Assembly (NCBI RefSeq): GCF_000011805.1
Contig: NC_006841.2
Strand: one strand, 5' to 3'
DNA from: Aliivibrio fischeri ES114
GTDB lineage: Bacteria > Pseudomonadota > Gammaproteobacteria > Enterobacterales > Vibrionaceae
Length of the DNA stretch: 32,000 nucleotides
A program made the translations under genes and the position numbers. Below, one piece after another: positions 512-22,724 of this stretch (position 1 is its first letter; each line of letters starts with the position of its first letter). The notes beneath the pieces were generated by a model. That model saw only the letters and a list, made by a program, of their open reading frames with translations, did not search any database and was not told the origin of the DNA.

Positions 512-2380
512 CTAGACACCAAATTTCATTTTCATTAATTCTTGAAAGTTTGAAACGATACGAAATGCATCTTTTAAATGCTGACGTTCAAAACTACCAA
601 ATAAATCAGGCTGTAGTTGACTATCAATGGGTGTGTCATTTTGAATCGCTTTTAATTGGTGTTGGAAACGCAAGCGATTTGCATAATGATAAGTTTCATT
701 GAGATCTTGATATGTTGAATCGTTAAGAACCCCGACTTGGTGTAAGAATTCCATGCGCTCTGTAGTATTTAATGCAGTACTTTCTTGTAGTAGTGAATAA
801 ATACGGATGAAATCAACCATACAAGAAATTGCGGCTTTTTTGATATTTAACACTTTATTATTGTTACCATCTTTTTCTAATACCAAATGCTTAAAGATGC
901 CTAGTGGGGGGCGAGTTCTTAATGCATTACGTACAAGAGCAACGGTTAACTGCATATTATTGCTTACCAATTCATGGCGGCAGGAATCAACAGAGTCAAA
1001 GAGTGCTTCATCCCCATAAATTGGACGAATTTCTAAAAATACATTCAGATTAAGCAATAACTCGTATTCAGGGTTATTACTCCATTTACGGTAATATTCT
1101 TGCCAAATCTCAGCTTTTTGGCACCATTTCGGTGTAGCTGCCATAAAGCGACCTTTACATAAGGTGTAATCTAATTCTGAGAGTGCTTTACATACGTACA
1201 TCGAGAAATGATTAAAATAGATTCTGTCTGATTCTGTCGCGTCGTCAGCAAGGATAATGGCATTATCTTGATCTGATGCTAAATGAACTTCATTTCGAGC
1301 ATGAGAGCCCGCGACTATCCATGTAAATTTACAAGGTGGCTGACCGAATTGTTCAATGGCAAGTTCGATTAACCGGTACGTAAATGCATCATAAATCATA
1401 CTCAGTACTTGCCCAATAATACTTGGCGATGAATTGCTTTCCATCATCCCCTGAAACACAGCACTTCGTTGTTTGGATAAATCAATTAACGTCGAGATGG
1501 AATCAGCGTGACGAATTTTATCTAGTAAGAAAATAGATTGAACACTGTCATTTTGAATTAAATGTTGTGGGGTGATAAAGCCTGTTACCTGTTTTTGATG
1601 ATTAAGCACCGGAATATTTTGAATATTATGCTTCATCATCAATTGAACAGCCGACATCACTAAATCATCTTCATACACGGTATGAATTTCTTGGGTCATG
1701 ATAGAAGAGATAGGGTCATGAACATTTTTTGCTTGAGCAACCACACGTTTCGTCATGTCCTTATCGGTGATCATTCCAATTAGATGTTTATTTTCATCAA
1801 CAATAAAAGCACATGAAACGCCAACCACATTGCGCATTTGATGAGCTACAGCTTGAATCGTATCGGTAGGGGAGGCAATCGCTATGGTTGAATCCGCAAT
1901 ATCACTGTTAGGACGAAGGTAGTTTTGATGCGCATGCTGTTGGTTGTCTTGTTTACTATCTTGCGCTCGCAAACGCGTTTTTAAACTTAAAGCAAGAGAT
2001 GAAGCGACTTGAGGATAAGCCTCCACTGACGCCATTAGTGATGTGTAGTCAAAGCGATATAGAAGCGTATTTTCTATGGCAAAAATGGAATAGCCAAATT
2101 CTGAGTCATTTTGCTGTAGGTTAAAGCCAAAGATATCTTCAGAGCCTAGTTTGGCACGCAATGTTCCATCAAGATTATTCTGTTGTACTACACCTGTACG
2201 AATAATATAGAGATGGGTAGCGTTATCTTCATGAGAAATGGTTTCTTCAGGGCCAAGCAATAAGATATCGACAGTTTGAGCAATATCATTGAGCGCTGTT
2301 TGTGGCAGTAAATCAAAAGGAGATATTGTTTGTAAGAAGGAAACAATATTCGGGAGGAGTTCATTATTCATATTGTTCAT
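512..2380 (-). CDS. Sensor nucleotidyltransferase: cNMP-binding domain + tandem CBS pair + DUF294 (Pol-beta/GlnD-like) NTase + DUF294_C substrate-binding domain
   Basis: 622-aa ORF. The N-terminus resembles a Crp-type cNMP-binding fold (..HLYIIRTGVVQQ..GSEDIFGF..). A CBS pair follows (..SCAFIVDENKHLIGMITDKDM.. / ..IQNIPVLNHQKQVTGFITPQHL..). The NTase signature is G-S-x10-D-x-D (WIVAGSHARNEVHLASDQDNAIIL). The domain order matches the COG2905-type family as I remember it. Confidence 0.85.
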   Translation of the reverse strand: MNNMNNELLPNIVSFLQTISPFDLLPQTALNDIAQTVDILLLGPEETISHEDNATHLYIIRTGVVQQNNLDGTLRAKLGSEDIFGFNLQQNDSEFGYSIFAIENTLLYRFDYTSLMASVEAYPQVASSLALSLKTRLRAQDSKQDNQQHAHQNYLRPNSDIADSTIAIASPTDTIQAVAHQMRNVVGVSCAFIVDENKHLIGMITDKDMTKRVVAQAKNVHDPISSIMTQEIHTVYEDDLVMSAVQLMMKHNIQNIPVLNHQKQVTGFITPQHLIQNDSVQSIFLLDKIRHADSISTLIDLSKQRSAVFQGMMESNSSPSIIGQVLSMIYDAFTYRLIELAIEQFGQPPCKFTWIVAGSHARNEVHLASDQDNAIILADDATESDRIYFNHFSMYVCKALSELDYTLCKGRFMAATPKWCQKAEIWQEYYRKWSNNPEYELLLNLNVFLEIRPIYGDEALFDSVDSCRHELVSNNMQLTVALVRNALRTRPPLGIFKHLVLEKDGNNNKVLNIKKAAISCMVDFIRIYSLLQESTALNTTERMEFLHQVGVLNDSTYQDLNETYHYANRLRFQHQLKAIQNDTPIDSQLQPDLFGSFERQHLKDAFRIVSNFQELMKMKFGV

Positions 2381-2438
2381 ACCTTCTTATCATGGGCTAT
2401 TTTGATTGATAATAACGTTACGCTCTACAAACATTGCA

Positions 2439-2485
2439 GGCTATTCATATTAATTGCAACCAATTGATAATTAATATGAATAGCC
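2439..2485. repeat. Perfect 17-bp inverted repeat (GGCTATTCATATTAATT / AATTAATATGAATAGCC) with a 13-nt loop, in the sglT to NTase-gene spacer
   Basis: Read directly: arms at 2439..2455 and 2469..2485 are exact reverse complements. The loop GCAACCAATTGAT contains CAATTG. No U/T tract follows on either strand, so this is not a canonical intrinsic terminator. Confidence 0.9.
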
Positions 2486-2511
2486 CCATCATTGGATGAG
2501 GCTAGAGAAGA

Positions 2512-4143
2512 TTACCAGAATACTGAGTACAGCACTGCAAGAATAATCACAACAACGTAAGCGGCAATATTAAAATTACGTTCTGTCGCAAACATGGAAG
2601 AGTCTAATGCGATAGCTTTAGGATCATCATCATGATCTGAGTAACTTAGACTCGTGAATGCAATCACTGCCATAGTAAACAGAAGTGTGTATAGCATTTG
2701 ATCCATAAACGGCATGTTTAATGGCATAAATTTTAAGAACAGTGCAAATGGGATTGATACTATTACACCAATAACTGCACCTTTACTGTTGGTTTTCTTC
2801 CAAAATAGACCTAGTAAGAAGACCGCCAAGATACCTGGGCTTACTAAACCTGTGTATTCTTGAATATATTGGAATGCTTGACCAAGGTTACTTAGCATTG
2901 GAGCGATTAAACAAGCGACAACTAAAGCCACGATAGCTGAAATACGACCTACATTTACAAGCTTGTGGTCGCCTGCTTTTTTACCAACAAATTCTTTGTA
3001 GATATCCATTGTGAATATGGTAGCCGTTGAGTTCAGCATTGAAGCTAATGACGACACAATTGCTGCGGCTAATGCGGCAAATACAATACCTTTAAATCCA
3101 ACTGGTAAGAATTGTGTTAGCCATGGATAAGCTTTATCTGCATGAGCAAGCGTAGGAACGTTGGACGTTGCAATACTTCCAAGTTGTGACATCAGCTCTG
3201 GAGAAGTGGTAATTACGTAAGCGGCGATCCCTGGAACGACAACTAGGAATGGCACGAGTAATTTTAAGAAAGCAGCGAAAATAATCCCTTTTTGAGCTTC
3301 AGCAATAGATTTAGCCGCTAATGTTCTTTGAATGATGTATTGGTTAAAGCCCCAGTAATATAGGTTTGCAACCCATAGACCACCAATAAGAACTGCGATA
3401 CCTGGTAAGTTCATATATTGAGGATTACTTTGATCTAAAATCATTTCAAAGTGGCCTGGTGCAGCTGTCGCCATTTTTGATAAACCACTAAACCAACCGT
3501 CAGTACCGCCGATGAAATCAACAGCCATGTAAGTGGTTAATAGGCCACCAAGGATCAAGAAGAATACTTGAATCACGTCAGTCCAAACAACCGCTGATAA
3601 CCCACCGTAAATAGAGTAGGCCAATGCAAATAATGCTAAGCCAATAATTGAGTACATGAGTGGAATACCAAGAATCGTTTGCAGTGCAAGGCCGCCTAAG
3701 TATAGAACTGAGGTTAGGTTTACAAAGACATACAAGCAAATCCAAAATACCGCCAAAATGGTTTTTAAGTTTTTGTTAAAGCGTTTTTCTACAAATTCTG
3801 GAATCGTGTAGATGCCTTTATCGATAAAAATAGGCAAGAAATACTTACCAACAATGATTAAGGTTAGTGCTGCCATCCATTCATAGGAAGCAATCGCTAA
3901 ACCGATAGAAAAGCCAGATCCTGACATTCCAATAAATTGTTCCGCTGAAATATTAGCGGCGATTAAGGATGAACCAACCGCCCACCAAGGTAGCGATTTC
4001 CCTGCGAGGAAATAATCCTCTGTACTTTTTTGAGAGCCTTTTTTATCTCTGGATACCCAGAGGCCAACGCCGATAATGATTGCTACATAGAGAGCAAAAA
4101 CGATGATATCGACAATACCTAATCCATTTTCTACATGAGACAT
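2512..4143 (-). CDS. sglT: Na+/galactose (glucose) cotransporter, solute:sodium symporter family (vSGLT orthologue)
   Basis: 543 aa, the same length as V. parahaemolyticus vSGLT. It agrees with my memory of that protein over long runs (e.g. STEDYFLAGKSLPWWAVG, SLIAANISAEQFIGMSGSG, GIYTIPEFVEKRFNK, QYIQEYTGLVSPGILAVFLLGLFWKKT). It is divergent from galE and shares GalR-type operators with it. Confidence 0.95.
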   Translation of the reverse strand: MSHVENGLGIVDIIVFALYVAIIIGVGLWVSRDKKGSQKSTEDYFLAGKSLPWWAVGSSLIAANISAEQFIGMSGSGFSIGLAIASYEWMAALTLIIVGKYFLPIFIDKGIYTIPEFVEKRFNKNLKTILAVFWICLYVFVNLTSVLYLGGLALQTILGIPLMYSIIGLALFALAYSIYGGLSAVVWTDVIQVFFLILGGLLTTYMAVDFIGGTDGWFSGLSKMATAAPGHFEMILDQSNPQYMNLPGIAVLIGGLWVANLYYWGFNQYIIQRTLAAKSIAEAQKGIIFAAFLKLLVPFLVVVPGIAAYVITTSPELMSQLGSIATSNVPTLAHADKAYPWLTQFLPVGFKGIVFAALAAAIVSSLASMLNSTATIFTMDIYKEFVGKKAGDHKLVNVGRISAIVALVVACLIAPMLSNLGQAFQYIQEYTGLVSPGILAVFLLGLFWKKTNSKGAVIGVIVSIPFALFLKFMPLNMPFMDQMLYTLLFTMAVIAFTSLSYSDHDDDPKAIALDSSMFATERNFNIAAYVVVIILAVLYSVFW

Positions 4144-18348: not shown

Positions 18349-18562
18349 AAATAAAAGTCATCTTTTAAACCTCCTCTACAGCATAAAAACACAGTATTGA
18401 AATATGAAGTGAATCTTTCATTTGTTAAATCAATTCATTCTGTTGTTTAGTGCTGCATTTCACATTTTTGCTCTATTTAAGCTCTTGTTGTTAACTCATT
18501 GTTAATTTCTAGTGTATGGTTGGTTGTGTTTTATACCAACACTTACAATTAAAGGGATTTTT

Positions 18563-20071
18563 ATGCAGGGTGTAGTTGATTTTTTAAATGGGATTATTTG
18601 GAGTCCATTTCTCATTTATTTATGTTTGGGTGCTGGTCTGTTTTATTCAATTCAGACTCGGTTTGTTCAAGTTCGACATTTTAAAGAAATGTGTCGTTTA
18701 TTAATTTCAAACAAAGAATCCAGTAAAGGGATCAGTTCATTTCAAGCGTTAGCAGTATCTCTGTCTGGACGAGTGGGTACAGGTAATATCGCAGGTGTTG
18801 CGGCGGCGATTGGCTTTGGTGGTCCAGGTGCAGTATTTTGGATGTGGGTTGTTGCCTTTTTAGGTGCTGCAACGGCTTATGCGGAATCTACGCTTGCTCA
18901 AATCTATAAAGAAGAAGATGAAGGGCAGTTTCGTGGTGGCCCTGCTTATTATATAGAGAAAGCAATGGGGCAAAAGTGGTATGCGTGGATTTTTGCTATT
19001 GCGACTATTTTTGCTTGTGGTGTTTTACTTCCTGGCGTTCAATCAAACAGTATTGGTAATGCAGTCGAAACGGCTTTTGGATCAGGTAGTATGATTGATA
19101 CTGGGTTGGGTGTATTTAGTTTTGCTAAGATCTTCACCGGTGCAGTTATCTCGATAATTCTTGGCTTCATCATTTTTGGTGGAGTGAAACGTATTGCCAA
19201 CTTCACGCAAATTGTTGTCCCGTTCATGGCTCTGGCTTATATTATCTTAGCGTTTGTCATTATTCTGCTGAACATTAATGAAGTTCCAGCGATTTTTGCA
19301 CTGATCATTGGTGATGCATTTACGCCAATGGCAGGGTTTGGTGCTGCTATTGGTTGGGGGGTTAAGCGAGGTGTTTATTCAAACGAAGCGGGTCAAGGTA
19401 CTGGTCCACATGCAGCTGCTGCGGCAAGTGTTGAACATCCTGCACAACAAGGGTTAGTTCAATCATTCTCTATTTACATTGATACCTTGCTAGTTTGTTC
19501 TGCTACAGCATTTATGATTTTAATTACCGGCGCCTACAATGTACATGGTAGTGGAGAGGGAGTTTTCTTAGTTCAAAATATCTCTGAAACCATTGGTGCA
19601 AATGGTCCTATGTTCACTCAAATGGCAATTGAAAGCACTCTACCTGGTATCGGTAAAATCTTTATTGCTTTTGCATTATTCTTTTTCGCATTCACAACAA
19701 TTTTAGCTTATTACTATATTGCTGAAACGAACATTGCTTATATACGTCGAACATTAAAAATTGATGGAATGATGTTTGTTCTTAAAGTGGTGATCATGTC
19801 TGCGGTATTTTACGGTACGGTTAAAACGACTAACCTTGCTTGGGCTATGGGTGACGTTGGTGTTGGGGTAATGGCTTGGTTAAATATCATTGGTATTCTG
19901 ATTATTTTCTTCTTGTCAAAACCTGCATTAAAAGCGCTAAAAGATTATGAAGAACAGCAAAAACAAGGTGTAAAAAGTTTTACTTTCGACCCTGTAAAAC
20001 TAGGAATTAAAGGCGCAACTTATTGGGAACAAAAGTTAGAAAGAAACAATAAGAAATCCAGAGAAAAATAA
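18563..20071 (+). CDS. Alanine/glycine:cation symporter (AGCS family)
   Basis: Typical AGCS blocks are present (QALAVSLSGRVGTGNIAGVAAAI..GGPGAVFWMW, YSNEAGQG). I prefer ATG 18563 (MQGVVDFLNG..) with RBS AAAGGGA 6 nt upstream. The track's 18512 start adds 17 unlikely residues. Confidence 0.9.
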   Translation: MQGVVDFLNGIIWSPFLIYLCLGAGLFYSIQTRFVQVRHFKEMCRLLISNKESSKGISSFQALAVSLSGRVGTGNIAGVAAAIGFGGPGAVFWMWVVAFLGAATAYAESTLAQIYKEEDEGQFRGGPAYYIEKAMGQKWYAWIFAIATIFACGVLLPGVQSNSIGNAVETAFGSGSMIDTGLGVFSFAKIFTGAVISIILGFIIFGGVKRIANFTQIVVPFMALAYIILAFVIILLNINEVPAIFALIIGDAFTPMAGFGAAIGWGVKRGVYSNEAGQGTGPHAAAAASVEHPAQQGLVQSFSIYIDTLLVCSATAFMILITGAYNVHGSGEGVFLVQNISETIGANGPMFTQMAIESTLPGIGKIFIAFALFFFAFTTILAYYYIAETNIAYIRRTLKIDGMMFVLKVVIMSAVFYGTVKTTNLAWAMGDVGVGVMAWLNIIGILIIFFLSKPALKALKDYEEQQKQGVKSFTFDPVKLGIKGATYWEQKLERNNKKSREK

Positions 20072-20094
20072 ATAAGATTGCTATCTAAAATAAG

Positions 20095-20124
20095 AAAAAT
20101 GCCGTTAATGTAACGGCATTTTTT
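20095..20124 (+). terminator. Intrinsic terminator after the AGCS gene
   Basis: AAAAATGCCGTTA-atg-TAACGGCATTTTTT: a GC-containing stem followed by a 6-T run. Confidence 0.8.
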
Positions 20125-20150
20125 ATGTCAAATTAAATATGGAGTACAGC

Positions 20151-20543
20151 ATGTCAGGAATTTTAGAATTAGATGAACTGCTTAAAACAATGAAGCCAGA
20201 ACTGTTAACTCAAGAGTATGTGTTTTGCTGTGTGGAAGGGGAGCTGAAAGAATATATTAGCTTAAACCCTATCGGGAGTTTTGTTGAGCAAGAAGGATTA
20301 ACCTTAGTTTTAGAGAAAGACGTTGCTCTTAAGGAAAACATCCCATTTGAAGGGGTATTTCGTCAAATAACGTTAACGGTTCATTCAAGTTTAGATGCTG
20401 TAGGTCTCACTGCCGCTGTATCAACTAAATTAGCATCAAAAGGGATAAGTGCGAATGTGGTGGCCGCGTTTTATCATGATCATATTTTTGTTCAATCTAG
20501 TAAGGCTGAGTTGGCATTATCTGCGTTAAAAGAGATCGAATAA
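20151..20543 (+). CDS. Small ACT-domain protein of unknown function
   Basis: About 130 aa. The C-terminal half (..ITLTVHSSLDAVGLTAAVSTKLASKGISANVVAAFYHDHIFV..) has the ACT beta-alpha-beta-beta-alpha-beta pattern. GGAG lies 6 nt before ATG 20151, whereas the track's 20139 ATG has no RBS. Confidence 0.7.
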   Translation: MSGILELDELLKTMKPELLTQEYVFCCVEGELKEYISLNPIGSFVEQEGLTLVLEKDVALKENIPFEGVFRQITLTVHSSLDAVGLTAAVSTKLASKGISANVVAAFYHDHIFVQSSKAELALSALKEIE

Positions 20544-20623
20544 TCACTATACATTTTATATGGCATTGCTAATGCCTATGGTAAAATCAGAGCTCATTTT
20601 TTTGTTAACCAAGAAGTATAAAC

Positions 20624-20971
20624 ATGGATATTCAACGTATTAACCCAAGCGAAAAATGGTCTGATGTAACAGTATTTAATAAAATGGCTCATTTTGTTGA
20701 AGTGGCAGAAGATGAAACGGCAGATATGCTAGGCCAAACTGAGCAAGTATTCGCTCAAGCTGAAGCGATGCTAGCAAGTGTAAATAGTGATAAGTCTCGT
20801 TTAGTATCGGTTACTATTTATGTAACTGATTTTGCTAATCTAGCCGTATTTAATGAAGCATGGATAAAGTGGTTACCAGAAGGGTGTGCTCCAAGCCGTG
20901 CCTGTTTAAAAGTAGAGCTTGCCGATCCTAATTACTTGGTTGAAATCGCATTCGTTGCTGCAGTTAAGTGA
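20624..20971 (+). CDS. yoaB: RidA/YjgF/YER057c-family protein (YoaB-like)
   Basis: 115 aa. The pattern I..I.....WSDV...N......V.E........QT.......A.L...GS.KS.......I...D...F..MN.AW..W......P.R.......L..P.Y.VEI...AAV is colinear with my memory of E. coli YoaB. Confidence 0.75.
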   Translation: MDIQRINPSEKWSDVTVFNKMAHFVEVAEDETADMLGQTEQVFAQAEAMLASVNSDKSRLVSVTIYVTDFANLAVFNEAWIKWLPEGCAPSRACLKVELADPNYLVEIAFVAAVK

Positions 20972-21137
20972 TGATTATGTCGCTAAATAGGAAGTCTATT
21001 TAGTGGCATAAATACAGATTTATTCAGTTGTTGTTTGCTCCTGTTTATAATGAAATGCTTATTATCAATAAATATGCTTTACAATCTTCGGGCTTTGATT
21101 TAGTTTAACAACAATTATTTTATAGAGTGTATAAGTT

Positions 21138-21233
21138 ATGTTTACGAACATTAAAAACAATCTGACTGCTTATCAAGCAGAATCGAGCAAGATTGCGTAT
21201 ACACTTGTCTCTGTCGTCGTTGTCATTCACTGA
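21138..21233 (+). CDS. Candidate branched-chain amino-acid leader peptide (31 aa: MFTNIKNNLTAYQAESSKIAYTLVSVVVVIH)
   Basis: My own translation; the ORF is too short for the track. Seven of the last 9 codons are Leu, Val or Ile, including GTC GTC GTT GTC in a row. This resembles the regulatory runs of E. coli ilvL and ivbL. The ORF ends inside a terminator hairpin and lies 102 nt upstream of brnQ. The SD is weak (GAGTG, 8 nt upstream). Confidence 0.6.
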   Translation: MFTNIKNNLTAYQAESSKIAYTLVSVVVVIH

Positions 21234-21252
21234 TACTGACGGCTTTTTTATT
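21213..21252 (+). terminator. Intrinsic terminator (attenuator) overlapping the Val codons of the leader ORF
   Basis: 5' arm GTCGTCGTTGTCA (21213..21225), loop TTCAC, 3' arm TGATACTGACGGC (21231..21243). This gives 12 of 13 positions paired (9 Watson-Crick, 3 G-U) with a GC-rich base, followed directly by TTTTTTATT. A competing hairpin, ACTGACG (21235..21241) with CGTCAGT (21253..21259), re-uses the 3' arm. Confidence 0.6.
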
Positions 21253-21334
21253 CGTCAGTTAGGCTGGCGGATAGAGCACTCCTTTTATATCTTCTAGCCC
21301 AACTGATACCAAGTTAACTTATAAGGTATGTTGT

Positions 21335-22651
21335 GTGAACAGAAGAGATCTCGCTGCTATTGGCTTTATGACCTTCGCCTTGTTTTTAGGTGCTGGCAAT
21401 CTAATTTATCCACCATTAATGGCTCAACAAGCAGGTGAAAACTGGTTGATTGCTATTGTTGGCTTTCTCCTTACTGCCGTTGGTCTACCTGCATTTACAC
21501 TTGTCGTGTTAGGGCGCTTATCTTCTGCTGATAAATTAACAGCGCTATTACCTAAATGGATGGACCGTTCATTTTGGTTTTTAGTTTTAACCACTTTAGG
21601 CCCTGCATTTGTATTACCTCGAGCTGTAACTGTTGCTTATGAAATGGGGGTAAAGCCTTTTTATTCTGGAAATGGCTTAATGGTTTTTTCTGCTTTATTT
21701 TGTGCATTAACGCTGTGGTTAGCACTAAAGCCGGGTAAGTTAGTTGATTATATTGGTAAAGTGATGACACCTGCTTTAATCGCTATGCTAGCGGTATTGG
21801 TTATTGCAGCATTAGTAAACCCTTTAGGGGAACCAAGCCAAGCGATTGAAGTATATCAACAAGCTCCTGCGGTGAATGGTTTAATTCAGGGTTACATGAC
21901 ATTAGATGCTATTGCTGCAGTTGCGTTTGGTTGGGTGATTATTCAAACTATTCGCAGTAAAGGAATTGAAGAGAAAAAAGCGATTTCTTATTACACCATT
22001 CGTATTGCGGTTATTTATTCTGTTTTAATGTCGTTATGTTATTTAGCTATGGGCTATTTGGGTTCTACATCATCTGAAATTGCACCAAGTGCAACCAATG
22101 GTGGTGAGATCTTAACGCGTTATGCTGCAGGTGAGTTTGGCATGTTAGGTCAAATTTTATTAGCTGCAATTACATTAATGGCTTGCTTAACGACAACCAT
22201 CGGCCTAACAAATGCAAACTCACAGTATTATAAAAATACTTACGGAATTACATTTAAAGCTAGTGCAACAGTGATCATGGTATTAACGGCAATTATTTCA
22301 AACTTCGGTCTAGAAACTATCATTGAAGTAAGTCTTCCAGCGATTTTAATTTTGTGTCCTATTGCCATTTCATTGATCATCGCTATGGTGTTAATTTCTG
22401 AAAAATCAGAATCAAATACGTTAACGATTTCAATGAGCCACACAGCTGTTGTATGTATTGCAGCGCTGTTTGGTACAATTGATGCCTTACATATTTTAGG
22501 TAAGTTGCCTGAAGGTATGGCAGCGTTTTGTGAACAATGGCTACCGTTGTTCTCATCACATACATCCTGGTTGTTACCTGTCTTTATAACTATTTTTGTT
22601 CATAAGCTGTTTAATAAAACAGTGTTAAAGAACGTTGTAGTAAATAATTAG
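21335..22651 (+). CDS. brnQ: Branched-chain amino acid:cation symporter (LIVCS family, LIV-II)
   Basis: 438 aa with a GTG start and RBS TAAGGT 7 nt upstream. The N-terminus [24 protein letters not shown] and overall length and topology are colinear with E. coli BrnQ (..[24 protein letters not shown]..). Confidence 0.93.
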   Translation: [438 protein letters not shown]

Positions 22652-22670: not shown

Positions 22671-22705
22671 AAAGAGCAGCCATAATGGTTGCTCTTTTTG
22701 TTTTT
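22671..22705 (+). terminator. Intrinsic terminator after brnQ
   Basis: AAAGAGCAGCC-ataat-GGTTGCTCTTT (11 bp, one G-U) followed by TTGTTTTT. Confidence 0.8.
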
Positions 22706-22724
22706 GGAATAGGGCTTTTCGTAT

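What the first reader, a model, noticed from the sequence alone, without database searches (positions are those of the whole stretch)
21138..21334. Val-rich leader ORF fused to an intrinsic terminator upstream of brnQ: candidate amino-acid attenuator on a transporter gene, with non-canonical geometry
Seen in sequence: a 31-codon ORF (21138..21233) ends ..T-L-V-S-V-V-V-V-I-H-stop. Its GTC GTC GTT GTC codons form the 5' arm of a 13-position hairpin (21213..21243) that is followed at once by TTTTTTATT. The TGA stop is the first triplet of the 3' arm. brnQ (a Leu/Ile/Val carrier) starts 102 nt later. Established: ilvL and ivbL leaders use similar Val/Ile/Leu runs for ribosome-mediated attenuation of biosynthetic operons. 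Inference: BCAA-tRNA charging controls read-through into brnQ. What is unusual is that the regulatory codons sit inside the terminator arm itself, and I could not find a classical 1:2 / 2:3 antiterminator set upstream. A ribosome stalled on the Val run would therefore mask the terminator directly, a pyrBI-like coupling logic. The freed 3' arm could then pair with CGTCAGT at 21253..21259. I do not recall leader-peptide attenuation being described for brnQ in gamma-proteobacteria, but I cannot check the literature here.
Basis: partly seen in the sequence, partly recalled or inferred. Interest (0 to 1): 0.7.

Follow-up and report, generated by a model that had tools for sequence, protein, structure and literature searches.

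The report
Valine-sensing leader peptide before brnQ
A tiny valine-rich reading frame and a set of competing RNA hairpins sit in front of a branched-chain amino-acid importer gene in Aliivibrio fischeri and many marine relatives. They most likely raise importer production when valine runs short, and I could not find this control element described anywhere.

Summary
The element is real. An in-frame leader ORF ending ..SVVVV(I/V)x-stop occurs upstream of all 45 brnQ genes of this paralog type examined (Aliivibrio, Photobacterium, Enterovibrio, Vibrio, Shewanella, Ferrimonas). A paralogous brnQ group (also Psychromonas, Moritella) carries an Ile/Val/Leu-rich version. E. coli has none.

The hairpin scores as an intrinsic terminator in just 10 of 49 distinct leaders, A. 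fischeri among them. A ribosome at the leader stop would mask it as well as a stalled one, so direct masking senses valine poorly.

What is conserved everywhere is a chain of mutually exclusive helices:
- 1:2
- a local 3:3' hairpin
- a long covarying hairpin (3+3'):4
- pairing of the pyrimidine-rich segment 4 with the brnQ ribosome-binding site

I propose a classical stall-dependent relay whose output is mainly brnQ translation initiation, possibly with Rho. A terminator is added in some lineages.

Rfam, NCBIfam and the searchable literature hold no match. This is a new variant of a known kind.

The parts
21077..21106 (+). Putative promoter: invariant CTTTACA (21077-83; -35 TTTACA 21078-83), 17-nt spacer, -10-like TAGTTT (21101-06). 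Predicted start near 21113.
   Evidence: CTTTACA is identical in all 19 aligned orthologous upstream regions, and TA..TT is conserved 17 nt downstream. The start site is inferred, not measured. The consensus scan missed it because the -10 is weak.
21138..21233 (+). Leader ORF, 31 codons: MFTNIKNNLTAYQAESSKIAYTLVSVVVVIH-TGA. A second in-frame TGA lies at 21237-39.
   Evidence: An ATG-started ORF in the Val frame is present in 24 of 24 lineage representatives, against 5/24 and 2/24 in the other frames. The N-terminus is divergent and the C-terminal ..SVVVV(I/V) is conserved.
21152..21164 (+). CA-rich motif AAAAACAATCTG inside leader codons 5-9.
   Evidence: (C)AACAAT(C/T) is conserved at this position in both leader types. 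Its function is unknown. It could be a GcvB site or a translation enhancer; this is speculative.
21213..21225 (+). Segment 1: Val codons GTC GTC GTT GTC (+A), the 5' arm of helix 1:2.
   Evidence: GTC makes up 9% of Val codons in the window's long ORFs.
21231..21243 (+). Segment 2: TGATACTGACGGC. It is the 3' arm of 1:2, holds the leader stop codon, and pairs alternatively with segment 3.
   Evidence: The pair at columns 136/154 is C-G in 20 sequences and U-A in 10.
21244..21252 (+). U-rich linker TTTTTTATT. It is terminator-like in this species, and its last four bases belong to segment 3.
   Evidence: Terminator discriminant +8.5 here. It is above 0 in 10 of 49 distinct leaders; window controls score +31.7 and +17.5.
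21248..21259 (+). Segment 3: TTATTCGTCAGT. It pairs with segment 2, with 3', or with 4b.
21263..21273 (+). Segment 3': GCTGGCGGATA. It forms the local 11-bp hairpin 3:3' (-11.9 kcal/mol) or pairs with 4a.
   Evidence: This is the RNAalifold consensus helix.
21254..21307 (+). Long hairpin (3:4b plus 3':4a) enclosing a pyrimidine-rich loop.
   Evidence: It is the MFE of the whole leader. Eight of 18 pairs change on both sides, against 4.2 +/- 1.1 in shuffles, with 0 of 500 shuffles reaching that. L034 carries GTCGG/CCGAC.
21288..21310 (+). Segment 4: 4a TATCTTCTAGCC (21288-99), 4b AACTGAT (21301-07) and ATACC (21306-10). It is complementary to the brnQ ribosome-binding region.
   Evidence: Per-sequence folds. 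The stretch from 3' to the SD has C/G = 2.6 here and 2.5 overall, against a window background of 0.85.
21323..21346 (+). brnQ translation initiation region: SD AAGG 21323-26, GTG start 21335-37, and AGA AGA (codons 3-4) 21341-46.
   Evidence: The start is TTG or GTG in nearly all orthologues. AGA makes up 12% of Arg codons in the window.
21335..22651 (+). brnQ, the LIV-II / LIVCS branched-chain amino-acid:cation carrier, 438 aa.
   Evidence: Pfam PF05525, E = 1.8e-114. It is 97-100% identical to A. fischeri BrnQ.
22671..22707 (+). Canonical intrinsic terminator after brnQ. It shows that the gene is monocistronic and serves as a positive control for terminator scoring.
   Evidence: d = +31.7.

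Best explanation
The brnQ mRNA begins with a ribosome-read sensor of Val-tRNA charging.

SHOWN:
- A conserved promoter-proximal 31-codon ORF ends in a run of rare GUC Val codons.
- Those codons are segment 1 of helix 1:2, and the leader stop codon lies in segment 2.
- Segment 2 can instead pair with segment 3.
- Segment 3 can instead form a local hairpin with 3', or, together with 3', form a long hairpin with segment 4.
- The long hairpin covaries.

INFERRED mechanism:
1. With Val plentiful, the ribosome runs to the stop and covers segment 2. Segment 3 then folds at once into the 3:3' hairpin. This leaves the pyrimidine-rich segment 4 free to pair with the brnQ Shine-Dalgarno sequence, the weak GUG/UUG start and codons 3-4. 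brnQ is poorly translated, and the untranslated C-rich, G-poor leader may also invite Rho.
2. With Val scarce, the ribosome stalls on segment 1 and segment 2 captures segment 3. Segment 3' then pairs with 4a. When the ribosome leaves, 3:4b zips up to give the long hairpin, the initiation region stays open, and brnQ is made.
3. The two end states are nearly iso-energetic and separated by a large barrier. The choice is therefore made during transcription and then kept.
4. In A. fischeri and a few other lineages, helix 1:2 is also followed by a U-tract. There it probably pauses or terminates polymerases whose leader is not being translated, adding a transcriptional layer.
For: ORF and codons:
- An in-frame ATG ORF of 20-44 codons is found in every locus. 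The N-terminus diverges and ..SVVVV(I/V)x-stop is conserved.
- GTC is the rarest Val codon in the window, at 9%.

Helices (alignment A1, 38 sequences):
- 1:2: 88.7% of cells paired, one compensatory pair (C-G in 20, U-A in 10).
- 2:3: 97% paired, with 0 of 38 mismatches at the one variable pair (GU 15, GC 13, AU 10).
- 3:3' is the RNAalifold consensus.
- Long hairpin: 8 pairs with changes on both sides, 0 of 500 shuffles reach this, and slid controls are far lower.

The terminator is not conserved:
- d > 0 in 10 of 49 leaders, with none downstream in any leader.

Output:
- In 17 of 19 representatives, the MFE of the stretch after 3' pairs segment 4 with the SD or start.
- Lineage-specific complementary pairs: UCUUCU/AGAAGA, UCUUCC/GGAAGA, CUCUUC/GAAGAG, UCUCG/CGAGA, CUCUUUU/AAAAGAG, GCAAGUU/AACUUGC, AACCACC/GGUGGUU (sequences).
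- OFF and ON energies differ by 0-5 kcal/mol in most representatives (up to about 9), with findpath barriers mostly 15-25 kcal/mol.
- Unpaired probability of the initiation region is 0.56 (ON) against 0.45 (OFF), higher in 20 of 24.
- A crude co-transcriptional heuristic gives stall -> long hairpin and no stall -> 3:3' plus sequestor in 4 of 5 sequences.

The same module sits on a paralogous brnQ with Ile/Val/Leu leaders and no U-tract.
Against: - Pairing of segment 4 with the initiation region is not column-conserved: RNAalifold finds 0 pairs.
- That pairing is only about 1.2 sd better than dinucleotide shuffles, because any CU-rich stretch pairs with a purine-rich start region.
- The accessibility difference between states is modest.
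- In A. fischeri a short ATACC/GGTAT helix can cover the SD in both states.
- In several type-2 leaders a GUCC/GGAC helix does the same.
- 2:3 (-8 to -10 kcal/mol) is weaker than 3:3' (-12 to -14), so the relay works only kinetically. In one of five simulated sequences (L031) it reverted to OFF.
- The kinetic simulation is my own heuristic.
- There are no expression data of any kind. The direction of regulation is inferred from physiology.
Confidence: 0.55

Rival explanations
1. Helix 1:2 plus the U-tract is an intrinsic terminator, and a ribosome stalled on the Val codons masks it directly (pyrBI-like). The downstream helices are secondary.
For: In this window the hairpin (-13.2 kcal/mol, z = -4.35) is followed by T6ATT and scores as a terminator, d = +8.5. 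The same holds for some other Aliivibrio, one Photobacterium clade and Ferrimonas. The Val codons lie wholly inside the 5' arm.
Against: - 39 of 49 distinct leaders, including all type-2 leaders, have no terminator-grade tail, yet they keep the ORF and every helix.
- The leader stop is the first codon of the 3' arm. By my estimate from the known sizes of the ribosome and polymerase footprints (from memory, not computed), a closely coupled ribosome would sit on the Val codons or the stop when polymerase reaches the U-tract, whatever the Val supply. Masking would then not discriminate starved from fed cells.
- This model does not explain the strong conservation and covariation of segments 3, 3' and 4.
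Confidence: 0.2
2. Rho-dependent attenuation. The C-rich, G-poor 45-60 nt stretch between 3' and the SD is a Rho loading site. It is exposed when 3:3' forms and folded away in the long hairpin, so the leader ribosome controls Rho access, as in mgtL/mgtA or tnaC.
For: C/G is 2.0-4.4 in all type-1 representatives and 2.5 overall, against 0.85 for the window. No intrinsic terminator is found in most leaders. The alternative folds differ in how much of this tract is paired.
Against: The tract is short for a rut site. Much of it stays in an unpaired loop even in the long hairpin. Its pyrimidine richness is equally explained by pairing to the purine-rich initiation region. Rho sites cannot be recognised from sequence with these tools. 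This model is not exclusive of the main one, since polarity would follow from translational repression.
Confidence: 0.15
3. Reverse logic. Stalling frees segment 2, 2:3 forms, segment 4 loses its partner 3 and closes the brnQ start. BrnQ is then made when Val is plentiful, for example for catabolic uptake.
For: The chain 1:2 / 2:3 / 3:4b / 4:start has an even number of switches if 3:3' is ignored. In the stall-only simulation 4b still pairs with the SD region. In Shewanella, brnQ is assigned to a catabolic TyrR regulon (PMC3223726).
Against: This ignores the universally conserved 3:3' hairpin, which is the structure RNAalifold recovers. After stall release, simulated RNAs go to the long hairpin with the start open. 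Shutting off an importer when its substrate's tRNA is uncharged is physiologically odd.
Confidence: 0.06
4. The ORF is incidental. The region is an untranslated structured RNA (a riboswitch-like or protein-binding element, or a 5'-derived sRNA).
For: Strong primary-sequence conservation of GCTGGCGGATA and CGTCAG. The overall fold z-score is -4.0.
Against: The ORF is kept in the Val frame in 24 of 24 lineages despite indels and a free-running N-terminal sequence. A second, unrelated leader sequence that again ends in a BCAA-codon run sits on the paralogue. There is no Rfam match.
Confidence: 0.03

Closest known systems
ilvL (ilvGMEDA) and ivbL (ilvBN) leader-peptide attenuators of Enterobacteria
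   Same: A short leader ORF with a run of Val/Ile/Leu codons (ilvL ..SVVVIII.., ivbL ..VVVVRVVVVV.., from memory). The control codons lie in segment 1 of a 1:2 / 2:3 / 3:4 set. The ribosome reads tRNA charging.
   Different: Here the regulated gene is a transporter, not a biosynthetic operon. Helix 3:4 has no U-tract, so it is not a terminator. There is an extra local hairpin 3:3' and a fifth partner, the brnQ initiation region. There is no sequence match to any NCBIfam leader-peptide model or Rfam leader family.
trp operon attenuator (E. coli)
   Same: The logic is that a ribosome at the stop covers segment 2, while a ribosome stalled on the control codons frees segment 2 to capture segment 3. 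Helix 1:2 followed by a U-rich stretch could act as the synchronising pause, as the trp 1:2 hairpin does.
   Different: The final output helix is not an intrinsic terminator. In some lineages 1:2 itself carries the only U-tract.
pyrBI attenuator (E. coli)
   Same: The leader ORF overlaps the terminator-like hairpin, so a nearby ribosome physically prevents it from forming.
   Different: pyrBI senses UTP through polymerase pausing, not an amino acid. Its ORF reads through the whole hairpin, whereas here the ORF stops at the first codon of the 3' arm. The terminator is not conserved in this family.
ermC / cat-type translational attenuation
   Same: A ribosome stalled in a leader ORF re-pairs downstream segments and exposes the ribosome-binding site of the next gene. 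No terminator is required.
   Different: Those systems stall on a drug plus a specific nascent peptide. Here the stall signal would be uncharged tRNA at a codon run. The relay has more segments, and sequestration of the start is only moderately supported.
T-box leaders on brnQ in Firmicutes; GcvB repression of brnQ in Enterobacteria and Vibrio
   Same: The same gene family is put under control of BCAA or amino-acid status at the RNA level (PMC8787487 title and abstract; PMC9409037).
   Different: T-boxes bind tRNA directly and GcvB is a trans-acting sRNA. Neither uses a leader peptide.

Membership tests
Classical ribosome-mediated transcription attenuator (trp/his/leu/ilv type) | Short translated leader ORF with its own start codon upstream of the regulated gene | tested here: met
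   ATG ORF 21138-21233, conserved in frame in all loci. Translation itself has not been measured.
Classical ribosome-mediated transcription attenuator (trp/his/leu/ilv type) | Tandem codons for the amino acid related to the regulated gene, often rare codons | tested here: met
   V-S-V-V-V-V-I upstream of a Leu/Ile/Val carrier. Four of five Val codons are GTC, which makes up 9% of Val codons in the window.
Classical ribosome-mediated transcription attenuator (trp/his/leu/ilv type) | Mutually exclusive helices 1:2, 2:3 and 3:4, with the control codons in segment 1 and the stop near segment 2 | tested here: met
   The four-column chain at alignment columns 136/154/180/244 reads U-A-U-A, C-G-U-A or C-G-C-G in different clades.
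Classical ribosome-mediated transcription attenuator (trp/his/leu/ilv type) | Helix 3:4 is an intrinsic terminator (GC-rich hairpin followed at once by a U-tract) | tested here: not met
   No U-tract follows 3:4 or 3:3' in any leader. The best downstream discriminant is -14 to -64.
pyrBI-type coupling attenuator | Leader ORF overlaps an intrinsic terminator, so an adjacent ribosome blocks it | tested here: inconclusive
   Met in this window (d = +8.5) and in 9 other leaders. Not met in 39 of 49. The discriminant formula was recalled from memory and checked only on two terminators in the window.
pyrBI-type coupling attenuator | Nucleotide-sensitive polymerase pausing sets the ribosome-polymerase distance | not testable with these tools
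   Needs in vitro transcription.
Translational attenuation (ermC/cat type) | The SD or start of the regulated gene is sequestered by a segment that has an alternative upstream partner | tested here: inconclusive
   Segment 4 pairs with the SD or start in the MFE of 17 of 19 representatives, and with 3+3' in the covarying long hairpin. However, z is only about -1.2 against shuffles, there is no column-conserved helix, and the accessibility gain is 0.45 to 0.56.
Rho-dependent leader-peptide attenuators (tnaC, mgtL) | A C-rich, G-poor unstructured Rho loading site whose exposure depends on the leader ribosome | tested here: inconclusive
   The composition fits, with C/G = 2.5 against 0.85. Rho dependence is not testable here.
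Curated RNA and leader-peptide families (Rfam 15; NCBIfam 20) | A match to an existing model | tested here: not met
   No Rfam hit at gathering threshold in the 32-kb window, and none better than E = 2.2 locally. No NCBIfam hit for four leader peptides at E <= 10.

The most novel reading that the evidence does not exclude
An amino-acid-sensing leader peptide that works without any terminator. A five-segment RNA relay records, during transcription, whether the leader ribosome stalled. It stores the answer as one of two long-lived, nearly iso-energetic mRNA conformers that set brnQ translation. It exists in two paralogous versions tuned to Val and to Ile/Val/Leu in the same cell.
Probability: 0.35. 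Interest if true: 0.72.

Novelty: new variant of a known kind. Interest (0 to 1): 0.6.

Why it matters
Leader-peptide attenuation is a textbook mechanism, but the textbook cases are biosynthetic operons that end in an intrinsic terminator. This element puts a secondary transporter under direct control of tRNA charging in several families of marine gamma-proteobacteria (Vibrionaceae, Shewanellaceae, Ferrimonadaceae, Psychromonadaceae, Moritellaceae). Most of its members have no terminator. That points to translational or Rho-mediated read-out, and to a co-transcriptionally set, bistable mRNA.

It also supplies a compact natural Val sensor and a paralogous Ile/Val/Leu sensor that can be tested in genetically tractable Vibrio fischeri. 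BrnQ-type uptake is relevant there to growth on host-derived amino acids.

For genome annotation, it defines two unannotated or 'hypothetical' small-ORF families and a cis-regulatory RNA missing from Rfam.

Tried and rejected
- **Rfam, local at E <= 10 and whole window at gathering threshold:** nothing relevant.
Only one genuine locus turned up (L088, P. profundum-like), so it was unproductive.
- **RNAalifold on the stretch from segment 4 to brnQ +26:** no consensus helix.
- **Matched versus mismatched duplex test** between segment 4 and initiation regions: my automatic segmentation failed for several lineages and the compositional background was high, so it was not decisive.
- **E. coli K-12 brnQ upstream region:** no BCAA-rich leader, so the element is not universal.
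- **A second uORF between 3' and 4:** present only in two Photobacterium clades, so rejected as a general feature.
- **3:3' or 3:4 as an intrinsic terminator:** rejected, no U-tract.
- **Literature:** six full-text searches and four papers read turned up no brnQ leader peptide. Vitreschak et al. 2004 (FEMS Microbiol Lett, the main comparative survey of proteobacterial attenuators) is not held, so prior prediction there or in RegPrecise cannot be excluded.
- **V. cholerae brnQ:** not reached by either protein search, so published V. cholerae transcript maps could not be brought to bear.
Full report
**1. The observation**

- The ORF 21138..21233 encodes MFTNIKNNLTAYQAESSKIAYTLVSVVVVIH.
- Its GTC GTC GTT GTC codons (21213-24) are the 5' arm of a hairpin spanning 21213..21243.
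- The 3' arm opens with the TGA stop (21231-33).
- TTTTTTATT follows directly.
- brnQ (GTG 21335; Pfam PF05525, E = 1.8e-114) starts 102 nt after the stop.

The hairpin folds at -13.2 kcal/mol, against -5.1 +/- 1.9 for dinucleotide shuffles (z = -4.35). The whole leader 21100-21340 has z = -4.0. No Rfam family matches, either locally or in the whole window. BrnQ identity (97-100%) places the window in Aliivibrio fischeri.

**2. Conservation**

A genome scan with BrnQ returned 42 loci from Aliivibrio, Photobacterium, Enterovibrio and Shewanella. All 41 loci with upstream sequence have an ATG-started ORF of 20-39 codons in the frame that reads the GTC run as Val. In L022 the first in-frame ATG would give 69 codons; an internal ATG gives about 31.
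- The N-terminal two-thirds differ freely between clades.
- The C-terminus is ..(L)VSVVVV(I/V/T)x-stop.

The same leader was found with individually fetched brnQ genes of Vibrio taketomensis, Shewanella submarina and Ferrimonas. An ATG ORF of at least 20 codons covers the run in 24 of 24 lineage representatives in the Val frame, against 5/24 and 2/24 in the other two frames.

GTC is the rarest Val codon in the window's long ORFs, at 9% of 619. Rare control codons are a recognised hallmark of leader peptides (PMC2836559). The flanking gene upstream differs between genera, so the leader travels with brnQ.

An invariant CTTTACA (21077-83) lies upstream. A conserved TA..TT hexamer follows 17 nt later (21101-06). 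Together they mark the likely promoter, with a start near 21113 (inferred).

E. coli K-12 has no such ORF in the 406 nt before brnQ.

**3. A paralogous version**

A. fischeri has a second BrnQ (54% identical). Its gene, and its orthologues in Vibrio scophthalmi-like strains, Vibrio sp. CAU 1672, Shewanella violacea, Psychromonas, Moritella and Photobacterium ganghwense, carry a different leader. Examples:
- MLSLTVQQSAALCKMMLGSVSRVTSTIIAVILVIIN
- MTFNTKQQLTAYVVESANFERATPNIIAITLVIIN
- ..RIITAIILVIIY

In every case the leader ends in an Ile/Val/Leu run, and the stop codon TAG abuts GCTGGCGG. The sequence that follows is the same module: TTCCGTCAGCC..GGCTGACGGA, a pyrimidine tract, then CCCAGC..CTGACGG. 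These leaders have no T-run at all.

Gene callers have called some of them 'hypothetical protein'. The type-1 peptides are not in the protein collection, and none matches an NCBIfam model.

**4. RNA anatomy**

Alignment of 38 type-1 leaders (A1) shows near-invariant blocks:
- TCTGTCGTCGTCGTCA (segment 1)
- CTGACGCTGACG (segment 2)
- TTATTCGTCAG (segment 3)
- GCTGGCGGATA (segment 3')
- ATCTTCCAGC..ACTGAC (segments 4a and 4b)

The helices they can form were tested as follows.

| Helix | Result |
|---|---|
| 1:2 and local 3:3' | RNAalifold consensus; 3:3' is TATTCGTCAGY/GCTGGCGGATA, 11-13 bp, about -12 kcal/mol |
| 1:2 | 88.7% of cells paired; one compensatory pair, C-G in 20 and U-A in 10 |
| Long hairpin (3:4b + 3':4a; 21254-21307) | 87.7% paired; 8 of 18 pairs change on both sides, against 4.2 +/- 1.1 in shuffles (0 of 500 reach this); slid controls far lower |

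The 3:3' hairpin explains why the distal TTATT of the 'U-tract' is conserved. In the long hairpin, the P. damselae change GTCAG to GTCGG is matched by CTGAC to CCGAC. One four-column chain (alignment columns 136/154/180/244) reads U-A-U-A, C-G-U-A or C-G-C-G in different clades. That is what a 1:2 / 2:3 / 3:4 set predicts.

It lies downstream of the Val hairpin, not upstream.

**5. Is the hairpin a terminator?**

I scored every leader with the hairpin-energy plus T-weight discriminant of d'Aubenton-Carafa and Lesnik. The formula was recalled from memory. Two canonical terminators in the window served as positive controls and scored +31.7 and +17.5.

Helix 1:2 scores above zero in 10 of 49 distinct leaders:
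- A. fischeri (+8.5)
- four other Aliivibrio leaders
- one Photobacterium clade
- Ferrimonas

It scores between -9 and -79 in the rest, including all five type-2 leaders scored. The two type-2 leaders fetched later also lack a U-run. No other terminator-like site exists anywhere between the leader stop and brnQ. The linker after 1:2 is U-rich everywhere but often interrupted, for example GGUUAAUUUAUU and GAUGCUACUAUU.

A geometric argument follows; it is an inference from the known sizes of the ribosome and polymerase footprints, as I recall them.
- The stop codon is the first triplet of the 3' arm.
- When polymerase reaches the U-tract, a closely coupled ribosome is therefore on the Val codons or the stop, whether or not Val is limiting.
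- A lagging ribosome masks nothing in either case.

Direct masking thus reports coupling, not Val-tRNA. Where the U-tract is good, 1:2 may pause or terminate polymerases whose leader is untranslated. This parallels the synchronising role of the trp 1:2 pause hairpin. It cannot be the family-wide sensor.

**6. What the relay may control**

The stretch between 3' and the SD is consistently C-rich and G-poor: C/G is 2.0-4.4 in type 1 and 2.5 overall, against 0.85 for the window. brnQ starts with TTG or GTG in nearly all loci.

When 3:3' is formed, the remaining RNA folds in 17 of 19 representatives into a hairpin that pairs segment 4 with the SD, the start codon or codons 3-4. The complementary words differ by lineage:
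- UCUUCU/AGAAGA
- UCUUCC/GGAAGA
- CUCUUC/GAAGAG
- UCUCG/CGAGA
- CUCUUUU/AAAAGAG
- GCAAGUU/AACUUGC
- AACCACC/GGUGGUU
- GCUAGCU/GGCUAGC
- AUACC/GGUAU

The Arg codons at brnQ positions 3-4 are the uncommon AGA (12% of Arg codons).

The evidence for this pairing has limits.
- The pairing is not column-conserved.
- It is only about 1.2 sd better than shuffles.
- The gain in initiation-region accessibility in the long-hairpin ensemble is modest: 0.56 against 0.45, higher in 20 of 24. The sequences are not phylogenetically independent.

The two end states are '3:3' plus sequestor' and 'long hairpin plus open start'. They lie within 0-5 kcal/mol of each other in most representatives (up to about 9 kcal/mol). 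Where the long hairpin could be enforced, findpath barriers between them are 15-25 kcal/mol.

A crude co-transcriptional heuristic of my own gave these results.
- With a ribosome stalled on segment 1: 2:3, then 3':4a. After release, the RNA relaxes through barriers of at most 10 kcal/mol to 1:2 plus the long hairpin.
- With a ribosome that reaches the stop, or with none: 1:2 plus 3:3' plus sequestor, which then stays put.

This held in 4 of 5 sequences.

**7. Model and rivals**

I therefore favour a classical stall-dependent relay (1:2 / 2:3 / 3:3' / 3':4 / 4:start). Its output is mainly brnQ translation initiation, set kinetically during transcription.

Rho-dependent polarity on the C-rich leader is a likely accompaniment or an alternative. 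Intrinsic termination at 1:2 is a lineage-specific addition that includes A. fischeri.

The existence of a BCAA-sensing leader is well supported (about 0.85). The specific output is not (about 0.4 for translation as the main read-out). The direction of regulation (starvation turns brnQ on) is inferred. A reverse-logic reading and an 'untranslated RNA' reading are unlikely but not formally excluded.

**8. Comparison and novelty**

The element works like the ilvL, ivbL and trp attenuators in its sensing half, and like ermC-type translational attenuators (or mgtL-type Rho attenuators) in its output half. It fails the defining test of the classical family, because 3:4 is not a terminator.

Full-text searches found:
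- T-box and CodY control of brnQ in Firmicutes;
- TyrR control in Shewanella, where only six biosynthetic attenuators are listed (PMC3223726);
- GcvB repression in Vibrio alginolyticus (PMC9409037).

They found no leader peptide for brnQ. The main 2004 survey of proteobacterial attenuators is not held, so an earlier in-silico prediction cannot be excluded.

I rate this a new variant of a known kind and of moderate-to-good interest.

Noticed in passing
window 21077-21106: CTTTACA is identical in all 19 aligned orthologous upstream regions. That is more conserved than a -35 box needs to be. A TA..TT hexamer follows 17 nt later. This is the likely promoter, and possibly also a regulator-binding site.
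   Followed up: partly
window 21152-21164; same position in L044, L168-L171: A CA-rich motif, (C)AACAAT(C/T)TG, sits in leader codons 5-9 and is conserved in both leader types although the peptides differ. It resembles targets of the GU-rich GcvB sRNA, which represses BrnQ in V. alginolyticus (PMC9409037). It could equally be a translation enhancer. gcvB itself is not in the window.
   Followed up: no
window 21231-21239: The leader has two in-frame TGA codons one codon apart (TGA TAC TGA; TGA CGC TGA in Photobacterium). This is a by-product of the repeated CTGAC motif. It would catch read-through of the first, weak-context UGA-U/C stop.
   Followed up: no
window 21328-21438: An out-of-frame ATG lies 7 nt upstream of the brnQ GTG/TTG start, within the conserved AAGGTATGTC. 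It opens a 36-codon ORF that overlaps brnQ. It is conserved in Aliivibrio and most Photobacterium. It may be a decoy start or just part of the sequestor helix.
   Followed up: no
L044 (A. fischeri brnQ2, gene 2001-3326), L168-L173: A second brnQ paralogue carries its own Ile/Val/Leu-rich leader ending ..VII(N)-TAG|GCTGGCGG, with the same downstream helices and no U-tract. The two importers of one cell may therefore answer to different amino acids.
   Followed up: partly
L012 about 2418-2460; L020 about 2431-2470: In the P. phosphoreum and P. angustum clades, segment 3' reads GGATATG and opens an 11-12-codon ORF (MNFTSKLSLPAY, MLTLLFIFQPN). The ORF ends exactly at the TGA inside segment 4b. It is absent in Aliivibrio, so it is not general. 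It might be a second small ORF in those clades.
   Followed up: no
window 18512-20971: The genes just upstream of the leader are amino-acid related: a Na+:alanine symporter family protein, a two-ACT-domain protein and a RidA/L-PSP family protein. This neighbourhood is not conserved in other genera.
   Followed up: partly
By the energy and T-weight score it is not a terminator.
   Followed up: yes
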